From NCBI GenBank assembly GCA_019058445.1, contig JAHPZA010000009.1, positions 160,001 to 224,000 on the forward strand: a DNA stretch of 64,000 nucleotides. The letters run 5' to 3'. The DNA is from Promethearchaeota archaeon. GTDB lineage: Archaea > Asgardarchaeota > Lokiarchaeia > Sigyniarchaeales > SOKP01. Each line of letters begins with the position of its first letter. The first letter of the stretch is position 1. A model generated the notes under the pieces. That model worked only from the letters and a program-made list of their open reading frames with translations, was not told the origin of the DNA and searched no databases. This document shows, in pieces, positions 59,092-62,826 of this stretch. The position numbers were made by a program, and so were the translations under genes.

Positions 59092-59378
59092 TTGAATCCC
59101 CAATTTGTATTATATATTTAATATGAAGATAATTTTATTTTTTTTTTAATGATGATTATATTAAAGTCAAACTCAAATTTAAATTAAAACATAGCGATAA
59201 TTTAAGAAGAAATAATAGATAATCAACATCATATCAAGATTTAAGTATGTCCATCCATAATTTAGAAGATTAAATTAGTGCGTTATTGATAAATCACTAA
59301 AAAAACTTTTATAATCATCTTGATATATTCTTAATATTAAATATTTCATAATAGAGGTTACCAATATATTCGTAAATT

Positions 59379-60332
59379 ATGATATCTAGAATTCTGATTA
59401 TGGCTCCGGGAGGTGTAATTTAGAAAGAATTCCTTTCTAAACGCTACCTCTGCTACAGCAAGAACTTTATCGGAGACATGCAAAAGGATGATAATTTAAT
59501 CGAAGAAGATTTAGTTGGGGGATTTCTTAATGCTATTAGTAGTTTTGCACAAGAAATACAAGGCGGAGCCATAGAGTCTTTAAATTTTAGAAATTTCGAT
59601 TTCATTTATTCATATGATGAAGAATTTGGGTGTATGTTTGTACTAGTTATAGACATCGGTGATCCAGAAGAGGTAGTGAGAGAAAAACTTGAACTTATGA
59701 AAAACAAGTTCATGGAAAGATATAGAGAAGAGATACGAACATTTAGTGGATGCATTTCTGTTTTTGATGAGTTTGATGAATTTGTAGAAGAGAATATATT
59801 TATACCACCAAAAGTATTATTAGTAGGTGAGCCGGGGGTTGGGAAAACAACGATTATGAATTTATTTCCCGGAGAGACAATCTTAGAATTAGATGAGGAT
59901 TTAAACGAGATCATTCAAAAACCAATAGATAATATTAATTTAAGAAGCATAAAACAAATTACATTAAGGGAAATGGACTTAAGTGAATTAGTGGATAAAT
60001 CAAAACTATATAGACCTCTATTAAACTCGATAGATGCCATTTGTATAGTTTCTAACTCAGCAGCCAGTAATTTGTCTAGAACAAAGAATTTATTTTCTCG
60101 ATTAAAACCATTAGTGAAAAATACTGATTTCTATTTAATCGCAAATTTCCAAGATTTAAAAGAATACGCTTTTGAACCAAAGAAAATCGAAGATATGTTT
60201 GACGGGATAAAGACCTATGGATATTCAGCAACTCAAGATGATGCGAAAAGTAATTTTCTTCAGATATTGACAGAAATCTTAGAAAAATCTGTAGTCGAAA
60301 AGATTGAAATGAAACAAAAAAATTCATCTTGA
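59379..60332 (+). CDS. Longin-domain/small GTPase fusion; predicted join(59379..59417,59448..60332)
   Basis: MISRILIMAPGGV+LCYSKNF; LVGGFLNAISSFAQE longin helix; GEPGVGKT, NFQD, SAT. Confidence 0.8.
59418..59447 (+). other. Candidate 30-nt archaeal BHB intron in mRNA
   Basis: Contains an in-frame TAG; 9-bp hairpin, two 3-nt bulges, 4-bp central helix; excision restores the ORF. Confidence 0.75.
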
Positions 60333-60390: not shown

Positions 60391-60879
60391 ATGAGTCTTC
60401 CAGATAAATACGTATTCCCCGTTTATATCTATAAGGACATCTTAGACGAAATTAAAAATGTGTGCAAAAAAGCGAAATTAGAAGTTTTTGGATATTTAAT
60501 AGGGACTATTCATACATGGAATAAAAAAACCTACATAATTATTGAGGACCAACTCTTTCTCATAGGAGCAGTCCATAGTGATAAATATTCAACTTCCCAA
60601 ATAGAGGGAACCGCGGGAAAATACGAGAAAAAATTTCAAAAATTAAAACGTAAAAAAAATAATCAAGAACTGAGAATTGTTGGATGGTGGCATTCACATC
60701 CAGGATTTTCCTGTTTCCTTTCAAGAACGGACCTTCATACGCAAGAAGCTTTTTTTTATGAATCCTACCAAGTCGCATTAGTAGTTGATCCGATTAAAAA
60801 AGAGCTTGCATTCTTTACCTTAGATGGAAAATCAGATAATAGATATAAAGAAATTAGCTATGCAGTTATAAAACCATAG
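60391..60879 (+). CDS. JAB/MPN+ metalloprotease (deubiquitinase-like)
   Basis: EVFGYL, GWWHSHPGFSCFLSRTD. Confidence 0.93.
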   Translation: MSLPDKYVFPVYIYKDILDEIKNVCKKAKLEVFGYLIGTIHTWNKKTYIIIEDQLFLIGAVHSDKYSTSQIEGTAGKYEKKFQKLKRKKNNQELRIVGWWHSHPGFSCFLSRTDLHTQEAFFYESYQVALVVDPIKKELAFFTLDGKSDNRYKEISYAVIKP

Positions 60880-60915
60880 TATTAAATATAAAATTAAATC
60901 ATAATATGTTTCCCT

Positions 60916-61794
60916 ATGAAGTTATCTGAAAATAAAGATGAGGAAGACTTTGAAGTTATATCTGAAGTATCGATTGATGATGATAAATATGATAGGCAAA
61001 AACGAATTGTAGGATGGGATCAAAGCAAAATATCGAACGCTACAGTAATGGTTGTTGGAGCTGGGGCAACGGGTAATGAACTGATCAAGAATTTAGTATT
61101 AACTGGAATCGGAAAACTAATTTTAATCGACTATGATACAATAAACATCTCTAATCTTAATCGATGCGTATTATTTGACAAAAAAAGTGCTAAAAAACAA
61201 GAGTATAAAGTAGACGTAGTGAAAAAGGCGGTAAAAAATTTAGGAGAAACAGAAATAGTTGCACTAAAGGAAGATTTAAATGATATTGATAAAGATTTCT
61301 ATAAAAAGTCTGATGTGATATGTTCTTGCGTAGACAATATTGAAGCTCGACTCCAATCAAATAATTATGCCTATTACTACGGAATTCCTTTCATAGATTC
61401 TGGGATAGATGAATTTTACGGAACGGTTCAGGCAGTCTATTCTGAAGTTAAGGATGCTGCCTGTATGCAATGTGGTGTTTCAGGTATGGATTTGGATCTT
61501 ATGTGGCAAAAATATTCCTGCACTGGTCAGGAGATTGAATCTGAAAATGGGGAAACTATCGGGAAAATGGCAACTCTTATCACCACCACTGCTATTATTG
61601 GGGGTATACAATCTCAACAAGTAATAAAATTCTTACTGGGATTAGATTATTTTAAAAAAACTGGAAAATGGAATCCAAATATTGGAGAACCTTTAATTGG
61701 TAAGCAACTTAACTATAATGGCTTAACCAATTCATTTGAAATTATAAACAAGATAAAAAATGAAGAATGTTGGGTGTGCTCTTATAAAAAGTAA
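60916..61794 (+). CDS. E1-like ubiquitin-activating enzyme (ThiF/UBA)
   Basis: YDRQ, GAGATG, SNLNR, CVDN..AR, CMQC, YSCT, CWVC. Confidence 0.92.
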   Translation: MKLSENKDEEDFEVISEVSIDDDKYDRQKRIVGWDQSKISNATVMVVGAGATGNELIKNLVLTGIGKLILIDYDTINISNLNRCVLFDKKSAKKQEYKVDVVKKAVKNLGETEIVALKEDLNDIDKDFYKKSDVICSCVDNIEARLQSNNYAYYYGIPFIDSGIDEFYGTVQAVYSEVKDAACMQCGVSGMDLDLMWQKYSCTGQEIESENGETIGKMATLITTTAIIGGIQSQQVIKFLLGLDYFKKTGKWNPNIGEPLIGKQLNYNGLTNSFEIINKIKNEECWVCSYKK

Positions 61795-61926
61795 ATATTT
61801 TTTTATATAATAGACCAAAATCAAAATAATATAAAGTTATTATTATAAACGAAAAAAATATATTTTTTAATATAAATTGTCATTATTAATAAAACAAATG
61901 GGTTAGGAATTAAAGAGGGTAATCAT

Positions 61927-62508
61927 ATGAGTCCAGAACTACCTCAAGAGATATGGAAAGACAGGCTCGAAAATGAGATTAAAGGATTAAGGAACTTAGC
62001 TGTTATTGAAGAAAATTCAATTATCAGAGAAGAAAACAGCATAGAGATAATGATTGATATTAAGGCTCTAGGGTTTGAATATGTAAAAGATAGTGAGGGG
62101 ATTGATTTAGTTCCGAAATGGAACCATCGAGTATTTTTAAAAATAAATAGAAGTTTTCCCTATCCAGGTGGTATTGATTTTGCTTGGTATTCTGATATAT
62201 TTCATCCTAATATTCATCCAGTTGAGTTATCTACTTCCGATCAACCTGGTACGGGGTACATATGTTTAAATGTGTTAAAGAAATGGTCCCGATTATCTGA
62301 TTTAGAAACAACGGTGAAAGCACTGAAATTGCTTGTAGAAAATCCAAATCCAGATGATCCATTGAATTATCCAATCTGCGGAGAGGCGGCTGAATTTTTC
62401 AAACAAAATACTATGGATGAGCTAAAAGTACAATATAATATTAAGGAGGAAGAAGAAAAAAAAGAAACTACAGAAGAATCTGATGATATTATTATTATTG
62501 ATGATTAA
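61927..62508 (+). CDS. E2 ubiquitin-conjugating enzyme
   Basis: FPY, IFHPNI, GYICLNVL..WS, LLVENPNPDDPLN. Confidence 0.93.
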   Translation: MSPELPQEIWKDRLENEIKGLRNLAVIEENSIIREENSIEIMIDIKALGFEYVKDSEGIDLVPKWNHRVFLKINRSFPYPGGIDFAWYSDIFHPNIHPVELSTSDQPGTGYICLNVLKKWSRLSDLETTVKALKLLVENPNPDDPLNYPICGEAAEFFKQNTMDELKVQYNIKEEEEKKETTEESDDIIIIDD

Positions 62509-62571
62509 AATAGTGTTTTATATCTAATTTACTTAAAATATCGTAAAAATAAGGAAAAAAAGAGGGTATTT

Positions 62572-62826
62572 TTATCCTCCTACTACTCTAGCCCATAATG
62601 CTAGTTTGTCATTTTCTTTTAAGCCAAATTTATGAATGGCATCCTTAACTGTAATATTGGTAGGTAATTCTTGACCATTAAGGACTAATGTGTAAGAGCG
62701 CTGCTCAACTGAAATGATGCCCATATGTTTTATTATGATATCCACGATTTTCTCGATTATATGATGCTCTTTGACATCCAATTTAATTAATTTGCCAGTT
62801 CGGCTATCTTCTACGGAAATTTTCAT
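62572..62826 (-). CDS. Ubiquitin-like protein ending in Gly-Gly
   Basis: Beta-grasp pattern; C-terminus RVVGG. Confidence 0.88.
   Translation of the reverse strand: MKISVEDSRTGKLIKLDVKEHHIIEKIVDIIIKHMGIISVEQRSYTLVLNGQELPTNITVKDAIHKFGLKENDKLALWARVVGG

What the first reader, a model, noticed from the sequence alone, without database searches (positions are those of the whole stretch)
59379..59477. Candidate bulge-helix-bulge intron in the mRNA of a eukaryotic-signature longin-GTPase gene
Seen: the frame of the 59478 ORF extends up to ATG 59379, reading MISRILIMAPGGV-[I*KEFLSKRY]-LCYSKNF, with a 30-nt block containing TAG. That block folds as an inner 9-bp helix TTTAGAAAG (59419-27)/CTTTCTAAA (59433-41), a 3-nt bulge UAA (59416-18), a 4-bp central helix GGUG (59412-15)/CGCU (59442-45), a 3-nt bulge ACC (59446-48) and a short exon helix GGA/UCU. 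Known: archaeal tRNA-splicing endonuclease cuts BHB bulges after the second nucleotide, and mRNA BHB introns are known mainly from crenarchaeal cbf5. Applying that rule excises exactly 59418-59447 and gives in-frame GGV-LCY, a typical first beta-hairpin of a longin domain. Inference: an EndA-spliced intron gates expression of a trafficking-type protein upstream of the ubiquitin genes. Caveat: a one-base-slipped alternative BHB register would excise 28 nt and shift the frame, which could be noise or a switch.
Basis: partly seen in the sequence, partly recalled or inferred. Interest (0 to 1): 0.95.

Follow-up and report, generated by a model that had tools for sequence, protein, structure and literature searches.

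The report
tRNA-type mini-intron in Asgard longin-GTPase gene
A 30-base insert carrying a stop codon splits a conserved longin-GTPase gene of an Asgard archaeon exactly where the tRNA-splicing enzyme would cut, and comparison with relatives indicates it is a real mRNA intron, a kind confirmed in the papers I could search for only one archaeal gene (cbf5), although no spliced RNA has been seen yet.

Summary
From ATG 59379 the frame runs to 60332 with one TAG, and a 30-nt insert (59418-59447) lies exactly between GGV and LCY, which are contiguous in about 300-aa orthologs.

The insert can form a canonical 3-4-3 bulge-helix-bulge (BHB). Cutting after the second bulge base restores the ortholog frame.

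Main evidence:
- A second lineage (66% aa identity) carries a homologous 30-nt insert at the same site, with four compensatory pair changes, two of them in the exon-intron central helix.
- Insert-bearing alleles evolve at dN/dS 0.06-0.09.
- Exon 1 and the 30 nt before the "annotated" ATG 59478 show only synonymous changes.
- One allele has no ATG at 59478.
- EndA and RtcB are present in the genome.
- The EF-2 gene of this genome and of five relatives carries the same 30-nt architecture.

Caveats:
- In this allele the BHB is a minority fold. A 7-bp competitor is about 7 kcal/mol better.
- A slipped 28-nt BHB register would shift the frame.
- The only RNA-library contigs found retain the insert.

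"Gating" of expression is untested. The scan has noted similar mini-introns before, in other genes of this genome and in other archaea.

Verdict: a probable spliced mRNA intron (confidence about 0.8) and a new member of a known kind.

The parts
59379..59417 (+). Exon 1: 13 codons, MISRILIMAPGGV (strand beta-1 and the turn of the longin domain)
   Evidence: it matches the N-terminus of about 300-aa orthologs. Only synonymous changes are seen among insert-bearing alleles.
59418..59447 (+). 30-nt BHB mini-intron, with in-frame TAG at 59421-23
   Evidence: absent from orthologs exactly here; a homologous 30-nt insert at the same site in L074-L076 with compensatory changes.
59448..60332 (+). Exon 2: 294 codons plus stop (rest of the longin domain and an Arf/Rab-like GTPase domain). 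The spliced product is 307 aa.
59409..59411 (+). Outer (exon-exon) helix, 5' strand GGA; pairs with 59449-59451
   Evidence: invariant in the three distinct sequences.
59412..59415 (+). Central 4-bp helix, exon strand GGUG; pairs with 59442-59445
   Evidence: pair 59414/59443 is U-G, U-A or C-G; pair 59415/59442 is G-C or A-U.
59416..59418 (+). 5' bulge UAA; predicted cut between 59417 and 59418
   Evidence: Geometry. The cut rule (between the second and third bulge residues) comes from PMC2738675.
59419..59441 (+). Intron hairpin: 9-bp helix 59419-27/59433-41 and 5-nt loop 59428-32
   Evidence: two pairs with compensatory double changes and one G-U change.
59442..59445 (+). Central helix, intron strand CGCU
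   Evidence: CACU in L001 and L002; UGCU in L074.
59446..59448 (+). 3' bulge ACC; predicted cut between 59447 and 59448
59449..59451 (+). Outer helix, 3' strand UCU
59419..59446 (+). Alternative slipped BHB register (28 nt). Excision would shift the frame, so it is presumed unproductive.
   Evidence: -12.0 kcal/mol; also possible in L074.
59478..59480 (+). Internal ATG that ORF callers take as the start (284-aa ORF). It is not a conserved start.
   Evidence: The codon is ATT in L002 and I or L in intron-less orthologs. The 30 nt upstream evolve as coding sequence.

Best explanation
The gene at 59379-60332 encodes a 307-aa longin-domain plus small-GTPase protein. Its pre-mRNA carries a 30-nt archaeal bulge-helix-bulge intron (59418-59447), 39 nt after the start codon.

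The exon bases GGUG pair with the intron's last bases CGCU to form the 4-bp central helix. This helix is flanked by two 3-nt bulges, an intron hairpin and a short exon-exon helix. The splicing endonuclease EndA cuts after the second base of each bulge. RtcB then joins the exons, removing the TAG and fusing GGV to LCY.

Shown:
- the geometry;
- the exact fit to intron-less orthologs;
- conservation with compensatory changes;
- selection on both exons;
- presence of the enzymes.

Inferred: the cleavage and ligation themselves. Because a stronger non-BHB helix and a slipped 28-nt register compete in this allele, splicing may be inefficient or partly unproductive.
For: 1. Orthologs at 83-90% identity, and 19 relatives' genomes, read MISRILIMAPGGV-LCYSKNF without a gap or stop. 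The insert is exactly 30 nt, and the BHB rule picks an in-frame register.
2. Independent assemblies L001 and L002 carry the insert.
3. A second lineage (L074-L076, 66% aa identity) has a 30-nt insert at the same codon boundary, 21 of 30 nt identical, with TAA and TAG.
4. On the three distinct sequences all 48 pair cells of the BHB are paired. Four pairs show changes on both sides, two in the central helix and two in the hairpin. Slid controls give 48-56% paired and 0-1 such pairs. The competing non-BHB helix is broken in L074.
5. Among insert-bearing alleles dN/dS is 0.06-0.09 at dS 0.33-0.68.
6. Exon 1 shows 2 synonymous and 0 nonsynonymous changes against L002, plus three further synonymous changes in the X20 contig.
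7. The 30 nt between the intron and ATG 59478 show 5 synonymous and 0 nonsynonymous changes against L001, and 2 and 0 against L002. No start codon lies between the TAG and 59478, and L002 has ATT in place of that ATG.
8. In the ortholog model residues 2-8 and 14-19 are strands beta-1 and beta-2 of a longin fold, so exon 1 is structurally needed.
9. The genome encodes EndA (N and C domains) and RtcB. Asgard EndA is reported as the broad-specificity (alpha-beta)2 type (PMC5829648).
10. The same 30-nt architecture (4-bp helix, 3-nt bulges, 9-bp stem, 5-nt loop) interrupts EF-2 in this genome and in 5 of 58 relatives. In two of them the intron lies 6 nt further on, and the intron strand of the central helix covaries with the exon (CUGU with ACAG; CUGA with UCAG).
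Against: - No spliced junction was seen. One RNA-library contig (X19, depth 2.7) bridges the whole insert unspliced. Another (X20, depth 61.7) bridges the 5' junction unspliced. Such libraries can hold DNA or pre-mRNA.
- In the window's allele the BHB is not the favoured fold: -10.2 against -17.3 kcal/mol for a 7-bp helix with a 3x3 loop, and central-helix pairs are about 3% of the ensemble.
- A slipped 28-nt register is slightly more stable and would shift the frame.
- Covariation rests on only three distinct sequences.
- Motif-only scans of the genome show no significant excess of BHB geometry over decoy geometries.
- An EndA beta subunit was not found with the two Pfam models used.
Confidence: 0.8

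Rival explanations
1. A recent 30-nt hairpin insertion disrupted the gene. The cell makes only an N-terminally truncated protein from ATG 59478 (or nothing), and the BHB-like fold is a coincidence.
For: - ORF callers find a 284-aa ORF from 59478.
- RNA-library contigs retain the insert.
- The BHB is a minority fold in this allele.
- BHB-like flanks are common by chance in this AT-rich genome in absolute numbers.
Against: - Exon 1 and the 30 nt upstream of 59478 change only synonymously across alleles that all carry the insert.
- L002 has ATT instead of that ATG, and in orthologs this residue is I or L.
- A truncated product would lack two core strands of the longin sheet.
- The exon-intron central helix shows compensatory changes in a second lineage.
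Confidence: 0.08
2. The insert is translated or skipped by the ribosome. Either TAG is read through (for example as pyrrolysine), giving a 10-residue insertion, or there is a programmed bypass like phage T4 gene 60.
For: - The window's insert has a single stop (TAG) and is in frame.
- ARAGORN proposed an intron-bearing tRNA with anticodon CUA.
- A hairpin with a stop soon after the take-off point recalls gene 60 (my own knowledge).
Against: - No PylS above the cut-off in a 92.6% complete genome.
- The homologous insert in L074 has TAA and TAG, and EF-2 inserts in relatives carry TAA or TGA.
- There are no matching take-off and landing codons (GUA against UAC).
- Ten extra residues would fall between strands beta-1 and beta-2.
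- Bypass does not explain covariation of the exon-intron helix.
Confidence: 0.03
3. The insert is an RNA element with another role (a regulatory hairpin, or a site cut by EndA without productive ligation) that serves to down-regulate the gene rather than to be spliced out.
For: - Competing folds and the frameshifting 28-nt register exist in both lineages.
- A high-depth RNA-library contig in X20 (depth 61.7) lies on the region upstream of the gene, exon 1 and the insert.
Against: - Selection on exon 1 in frame needs a productive in-frame join.
- The slip potential follows largely from fixed codon bases (Gly GGN, Val/Ile NUN, Leu CUN).
Confidence: 0.06

Closest known systems
BHB intron in the cbf5 pre-mRNA of Crenarchaeota (Watanabe 2002; Yokobori 2009, PMC2738675)
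   Same: - A short intron inside a coding sequence.
- A BHB at the exon-intron borders, with cuts between the second and third bulge residues.
- An (alpha-beta)2-type EndA host.
- Patchy presence among relatives, with gain and loss.
- Gene callers mis-annotate the gene.
   Different: - A different gene (longin-GTPase) and a different phylum (Asgard).
- Here a strict 3-4-3 motif and a fixed 30-nt size, against mostly relaxed motifs in cbf5.
- Presence only at two tips of the gene tree.
- No cDNA evidence here, whereas cbf5 splicing was shown experimentally.
BHB intron in the 5' UTR of Haloferax volcanii HVO_1309 (PMC7714728)
   Same: An EndA substrate in an mRNA close to the 5' end; its removal appears to matter for expression.
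   Different: That intron is 46 nt, lies in the untranslated leader and does not interrupt the reading frame. It was confirmed by circRNA-seq and in vitro cleavage.
tRNA introns of Asgard archaea (bioRxiv 10.64898/2026.10.13.758758; PMC5829648)
   Same: The same splicing motif and enzymes; many recent, repeated gains at the tips of the tree; the route of arrival is unknown.
   Different: Those are in tRNA genes. That preprint does not mention mRNA.
Unconventional cytoplasmic splicing of HAC1/XBP1 mRNA (Ire1 endonuclease plus tRNA ligase/RtcB) in eukaryotes
   Same: It works alike (my own knowledge; PMC8718801 mentions RtcB and XBP-1). A protein endonuclease cuts two sites in a small stem-loop structure of an mRNA, and a tRNA-type ligase rejoins the exons, changing the reading frame or product.
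   Different: A different endonuclease family and motif. The eukaryotic splicing is regulated by stress, and no regulation is shown here.

Membership tests
Archaeal BHB (tRNA-type) intron in a protein-coding mRNA | Canonical hBHBh' geometry: two 3-nt bulges on opposite strands separated by 4 bp, flanked by helices | tested here: met
   h 3 bp, H 4 bp, h' 9 bp, bulges UAA and ACC.
Archaeal BHB (tRNA-type) intron in a protein-coding mRNA | Cuts after the second bulge base give an exon junction that matches uninterrupted homologs and keeps the frame | tested here: met
   excising 59418-59447 gives GGV-LCY as in all orthologs. The cut rule is from PMC2738675.
Archaeal BHB (tRNA-type) intron in a protein-coding mRNA | The structure is kept by compensatory changes in homologous introns | tested here: met
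   100% of cells paired and 4 pairs changed on both sides (2 in the central helix). Only 3 distinct sequences.
Archaeal BHB (tRNA-type) intron in a protein-coding mRNA | The BHB is the predicted dominant fold of the pre-mRNA | tested here: not met
   In the window allele a 7-bp helix with a 3x3 loop is about 7 kcal/mol better. In L074 the BHB and its rivals are comparable (central-helix pairs 0.4-0.47 of the ensemble). This is not a strict requirement: the cbf5 structures also needed manual modification (PMC2738675).
Archaeal BHB (tRNA-type) intron in a protein-coding mRNA | The host encodes the splicing endonuclease and the RtcB ligase | tested here: met
   EndA, one 203-aa frame with both domains; RtcB. 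The beta subunit was not found with these models.
Archaeal BHB (tRNA-type) intron in a protein-coding mRNA | Spliced mRNA and/or circular intron observed | tested here: inconclusive
   only contigs of three metatranscriptomes were available. Those covering the site retain the insert, and no joint was seen. Raw reads of the source organism were not available.
Archaeal BHB (tRNA-type) intron in a protein-coding mRNA | Cleavage by EndA in vitro at the predicted sites | not testable with these tools
   Needs recombinant enzyme and a transcript.
Longin-domain plus small-GTPase fusion protein (Asgard 'eukaryotic signature' type) | N-terminal beta-beta-alpha-beta-beta-beta-alpha longin fold | tested here: met
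   Best PDB matches are TRAPP Bet5/Trs23, AP-2 sigma, Sec22b, Mon1-Ccz1 and Ykt6 (TM 0.5-0.63). The model has mean pLDDT 68, so confidence is moderate.
Longin-domain plus small-GTPase fusion protein (Asgard 'eukaryotic signature' type) | C-terminal Ras-superfamily GTPase fold with a P-loop | tested here: met
   (Arf/Arl/Rab/Gem, target-normalised TM 0.6-0.74); P-loop GEPGVGKT.
Longin-domain plus small-GTPase fusion protein (Asgard 'eukaryotic signature' type) | Pfam family membership above the curated cut-off | tested here: not met
   Roc, Ras and Fuz_longin_1 are all below their gathering scores.

The most novel reading that the evidence does not exclude
This intron is one member of a population of about 30-nt BHB mini-introns of uniform build (4-bp exon-intron helix, 3-nt bulges, an inner hairpin of 7-9 bp with a short loop). 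These introns colonise many protein-coding genes of this Asgard lineage and move, or are lost, quickly. Routine enzymatic mRNA splicing would then exist in close archaeal relatives of eukaryotes. In this gene the competing helices would make splicing partial or conditional.
Probability: 0.5. Interest if true: 0.85.

Novelty: new member of a known kind. Interest (0 to 1): 0.72.

Why it matters
In the papers I could search, splicing of an archaeal coding sequence is confirmed only for cbf5 of Crenarchaeota (PMC2738675, PMC7714728). None reports it for Asgard archaea.

Here a gene of a eukaryote-like trafficking type (longin plus small GTPase, next to a ubiquitin-type operon) needs such splicing to make its full-length protein. 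The same genome shows the same mini-intron build in EF-2 and other genes.

If confirmed by RNA data, three things follow:
- Gene catalogues of Asgard archaea systematically truncate or split genes.
- EndA/RtcB act on mRNAs as a matter of course in this lineage.
- Gain, sliding and loss of introns in protein genes can be studied in the prokaryotes closest to eukaryotes.

The mechanism itself is not new, and the spliceosomal question is untouched.

Tried and rejected
1. RNA evidence. Three metatranscriptome runs hold only small shares of the region. When laid as contigs they gave no joint, which cannot decide the matter. The reason why the X20 contig ends 6 nt past the 3' site is left unexplained.
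2. Motif-only census of the genome. I compared strict BHB against decoy bulge sizes in several ways: raw counts, with ORF-fusion filters, in a 7x7 bulge-size matrix around all hairpins, and with a codon-usage filter (one search timed out). There was no significant excess (for example 67 against 47-60 at one threshold). The AT-rich genome pairs too easily, so such scans lack power. Individual hits still restore textbook motifs.
3. More alleles. Two pattern scans of JGI metagenome contigs found nothing. One scan of GTDB genome contigs gave only a chance hit in a spirochaete. A second protein search around P0029 found no further truncated forms.
4. Apparent short forms P0084, P0087, P0098, P0101, P0103 and P0115, and the paralog in L031 with '2 TAA', are start-codon calls or alignment overrun, not introns.
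5. The intron sequence is unique in the genome, not a repeat family.
6. Pyrrolysine reading of TAG: no PylS.
7. Leads from earlier notes. RNase HII of this genome is uninterrupted. The chlD lead gave no hit at the coordinates I derived, and at the gyrB lead's coordinates only a 35-nt hit in non-coding-looking sequence appeared, so neither was confirmed.
8. Pfam gives no family above its cut-off for this protein.

Full report
**What is in the sequence**

The + strand frame opens at ATG 59379, just after an in-frame TAA at 59373. It reads MISRILIMAPGGV, then ten codons that include TAG (59421-23), then LCYSKNFIGD and the Met at 59478. ORF callers start a 284-aa ORF at that Met, ending at 60332.

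- Outer helix 59409-11 with 59449-51.
- Central helix 59412-15 with 59442-45.
- Bulges 59416-18 and 59446-48.
- A perfect 9-bp hairpin 59419-27/59433-41 with a 5-nt loop.

The window has about 29% G+C. Its nearest named homologs come from Promethearchaeota, Lokiarchaeia, Hermodarchaeota and Thorarchaeota MAGs, so this is an Asgard archaeon. The window is C9:160001-224000 of a 4.6-Mb assembly that is 92.6% complete.

**Fit to orthologs**

A protein search with the read-through product found 277 homologs, mostly of 298-310 residues. In the alignment of N-termini every full-length ortholog reads MISRILI(M/I)xxGG(V/I/L)-LCYSKNF without interruption. The window's ten extra codons form a clean gap exactly between GGV and LCY.

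Sixty relatives' genomes were searched, and 19 of them hold the ortholog. None has a stop inside it, including the closest species at 86% aa identity. Their DNA reads GGA GGA GTC CTC TGC TAC and the like.

Removing 59418-59447, as the BHB rule requires, gives GGT GTA|CTC, that is GGV-LCY. The rule places the cuts between the second and third bulge residues (PMC2738675). The spliced product has 307 residues.

**Not an artefact, and found in more than one lineage**

Two ENA contigs from other assemblies carry the same insert. L002 holds it whole and L001 holds its 3' part. Both have CAC for CGC at 59442-44, so the pair U59414-G59443 becomes U-A. Logan's own assembly of the probable source run holds it unchanged.

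A second, more distant lineage also has it: L074, L075 and L076, three contigs with 66% aa identity in the protein P0029. It carries a 30-nt insert at the very same codon boundary (GGI|LCY), with TAA and TAG in frame and 21 of 30 bases identical to the window's.

On the three distinct sequences every one of the 16 BHB pairs is kept in every sequence. Four pairs change on both sides:
- 59415/59442: G-C to A-U.
- 59414/59443: U-G, U-A or C-G.
- Two hairpin pairs: G-C to A-U and A-U to G-C.

Sliding the 3' partners by 1-3 columns leaves 48-56% paired and 0-1 such pairs. Compensation in the helix that pairs exon with intron is what a BHB substrate needs and a mere hairpin does not.

In the gene tree the two insert-bearing groups are separate tips, each nested among intron-less orthologs. 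So the intron was either lost many times or passed between orthologs.

**Selection shows that the upstream part is translated in this frame**

Insert-bearing alleles have diverged a good deal: dS is 0.33 (window against L002) and 0.68 (against L001). Yet dN/dS is 0.06-0.09.

- Exon 1 differs from L002 by two synonymous changes. A contig in run X20 has three more synonymous changes there (59394, 59408, 59414). None is nonsynonymous.
- The 30 nt between the insert and ATG 59478 would be untranslated leader if translation began at 59478. They show 5 synonymous and 0 nonsynonymous changes against L001, and 2 and 0 against L002.
- No start codon lies between the TAG and 59478.
- L002 has ATT instead of that ATG.
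- Intron-less orthologs have I or L at that position.

Translation must therefore begin at 59379 and cross the insert in frame.

**The protein**

An AlphaFold model of the intron-less ortholog P0006 (pLDDT 79) puts residues 2-8 and 14-19 in strands beta-1 and beta-2. A helix, three further strands and a long helix follow, and then a GTPase domain.

- The GTPase half matches Arf, Arl, Rab and Gem structures.
- The N-terminal domain folded alone (pLDDT 68) matches longin domains best: TRAPP Bet5/Trs23, AP-2 sigma, Sec22b, Mon1-Ccz1 and Ykt6, with TM 0.5-0.63.
- Pfam gives nothing above its cut-offs.

The intron falls between beta-1 and beta-2. A product starting at 59478 would lack two strands of the core sheet.

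Downstream lie JAB/MPN, ThiF/E1-like and UBC/E2-like genes and a small ORF ending in GG. The order GTPase, JAB, ThiF is kept in L074-L076.

**Machinery and precedent in the same genome**

The genome has one EndA gene with both Pfam domains, and RtcB. Asgard EndA is described as the (alpha-beta)2 type with the L1 loop that broadens specificity (PMC5829648).

Following a lead from earlier notes of this scan, I checked EF-2.
- The gene at C10 is open for 760 codons except for one TAG inside a 30-nt insert (684116-684145, minus strand). The insert has the same build: H ACAG/CUGU, 3-nt bulges, a 9-bp stem and a 5-nt loop.
- In 58 relatives with this highly conserved gene, five others carry a 30- or 36-nt insert with stops.
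- Of the three aligned here, two have the intron 6 nt further on, after a repeated CAGAU. There the intron strand of the central helix reads CUGA, pairing with UCAG, instead of CUGU pairing with ACAG.

An essential translation factor interrupted in six species is hard to explain without splicing.

My scans also turned up inserts whose removal restores textbook motifs:
- HWDRE|WY of GH38 (C9:6926-6955).
- GGG|NGG of a Rossmann protein (C4:159314-159342, 29 nt).
- AAPEY|MEQKA of a CooS-like protein (C6:396802-396833, 32 nt).

**What speaks against easy splicing**

- The minimum-energy fold of the window's allele is not the BHB. GGAGGUG pairs with UACCUCU, giving 7 bp, with a 3x3 internal loop. 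That core scores -17.3 kcal/mol against -10.2 for the BHB, and the central-helix pairs make up about 3% of the ensemble.
- A second canonical register, slipped by one base on each side (intron 59419-59446, 28 nt), scores -12.0 and would shift the frame. It is possible in L074 too. It arises largely from bases fixed by the Gly, Val/Ile and Leu codons.
- In L074 the non-BHB competitor is broken by two mismatches, and the central helix reaches 0.4-0.47 of the ensemble. The conserved fold is therefore the BHB, but this allele may splice poorly.
- The only RNA-library material found does not show splicing. A 207-nt contig (X19, depth 2.7) bridges the whole insert. A 218-nt contig (X20, depth 61.7) bridges the 5' junction and ends 6 nt after the 3' site. 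These are contigs of metatranscriptomes that can contain DNA and pre-mRNA, and contigs drop minor forms, so they do not decide the question.

**Chance**

- The local fold is better than all 200 shuffles (z = -3.4).
- Of 125,958 hairpin instances with 7 or more pairs in this genome, 0.19% have a 4-bp helix after a 3-nt bulge plus an outer helix of 3 or more pairs after another 3-nt bulge. Other bulge sizes are just as frequent. BHB-like flanks are therefore not enriched genome-wide, but they are rare per hairpin.
- In addition, the hairpin must sit at one of about eight offsets within the insert, with two acceptable registers. That gives odds of roughly 5 in 10,000 for a coincidence. This last step is my own estimate.

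**Rivals**

- A disruptive insertion with restart at 59478 conflicts with the synonymous-only pattern upstream of 59478, with ATT in L002 and with the covariation.
- Read-through or pyrrolysine conflicts with the absence of PylS and with TAA and TGA in the homologous and analogous inserts.
- Ribosomal bypass lacks matching take-off and landing codons.

**Literature**

- Splicing inside an archaeal coding sequence is confirmed for cbf5 only. Other cases were merely 'predicted' (PMC2738675). A 2020 study repeats this and adds a 5' UTR intron in Haloferax (PMC7714728).
- A 2026 preprint documents many recent gains of tRNA introns in Asgard archaea but does not mention mRNA.
- Searches combining BHB, protein-coding or mRNA with Asgard or Lokiarchaeota found nothing on mRNA introns.
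- Earlier notes of this scan list similar candidates in this genome and elsewhere. I used them as leads only, and tested the EF-2, GH38 and RNase HII leads myself.

**Verdict**

The intron reading is well supported by comparative evidence but unproven at the RNA level, and 'gating' remains speculation. This is a new member of a known kind, with a plausible wider story of mobile mini-introns in Asgard mRNAs.

Noticed in passing
G000 contig C10:684116-684145 (minus strand); relatives' loci L045, L047, L049, L071, L072: EF-2 is interrupted by a 30-nt BHB insert with TAG in switch I (QMTD|SDDEE). Five of 58 relatives also have a 30- or 36-nt insert with stops. Of the three aligned, two have it 6 nt further on, and the central helix covaries (CUGU with ACAG; CUGA with UCAG).
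   Followed up: yes
G000 contig C9:6926-6955 (+), about 153 kb before the window: A 30-nt BHB insert whose removal restores the GH38 motif PETHWDRE|WYLTF.
   Followed up: partly
G000 contig C4:159314-159342 (+): A 29-nt frameshifting BHB insert 11 codons after the start of a Rossmann-fold gene. Removal restores IAILGGG|NGG. The central helix is perfect (GUGG/CCAC).
   Followed up: no
G000 contigs C6:396802-396833 (-), C10:174168-174195 (-), C6:165873-165902 (-): Further BHB-flanked inserts of 32, 28 and 30 nt. Their removal joins long ORFs with plausible motifs: AAPEY|MEQKA (CooS-like), W|QISRERFWGTPLPIW (class I tRNA synthetase-like) and QLYHGGA|YAF.
   Followed up: no
window 60391-62826: Directly downstream lie JAB/MPN (60391-60879), ThiF/E1-like (60916-61794), UBC/E2-like (61927-62508) and, on the minus strand, an 84-aa ORF ending in GG (62572-62826, no Pfam hit). 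The order GTPase, JAB, ThiF is kept in L074-L076; in L073 another 303-aa gene lies between the GTPase and the JAB gene.
   Followed up: partly
window 59300-59453, running on upstream of 59300 (contig in run X20): A 218-nt contig of depth 61.7 in a marine-sediment metatranscriptome covers the upstream region, exon 1 and the insert, and ends 6 nt after the 3' splice site. It has a 9-nt duplication (ATTTCATAA) behind 59342. The reason for its depth and its end is unknown.
   Followed up: no
whole genome G000: With introns allowed, ARAGORN finds only 23 tRNA genes, 19 of them with predicted introns. This fits the heavily interrupted tRNA genes reported for some Asgard archaea. Some calls (SeC, Pyl, Stop) look unreliable.
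   Followed up: no
L011 and L012 (closest intron-less orthologs): These orthologs seem to start at a TTG shortly after a GGAGGT/GAGGT motif (M-K-I-I-S-R…). In the window, GAGGT lies about 30 nt before ATG 59379.
   Followed up: no
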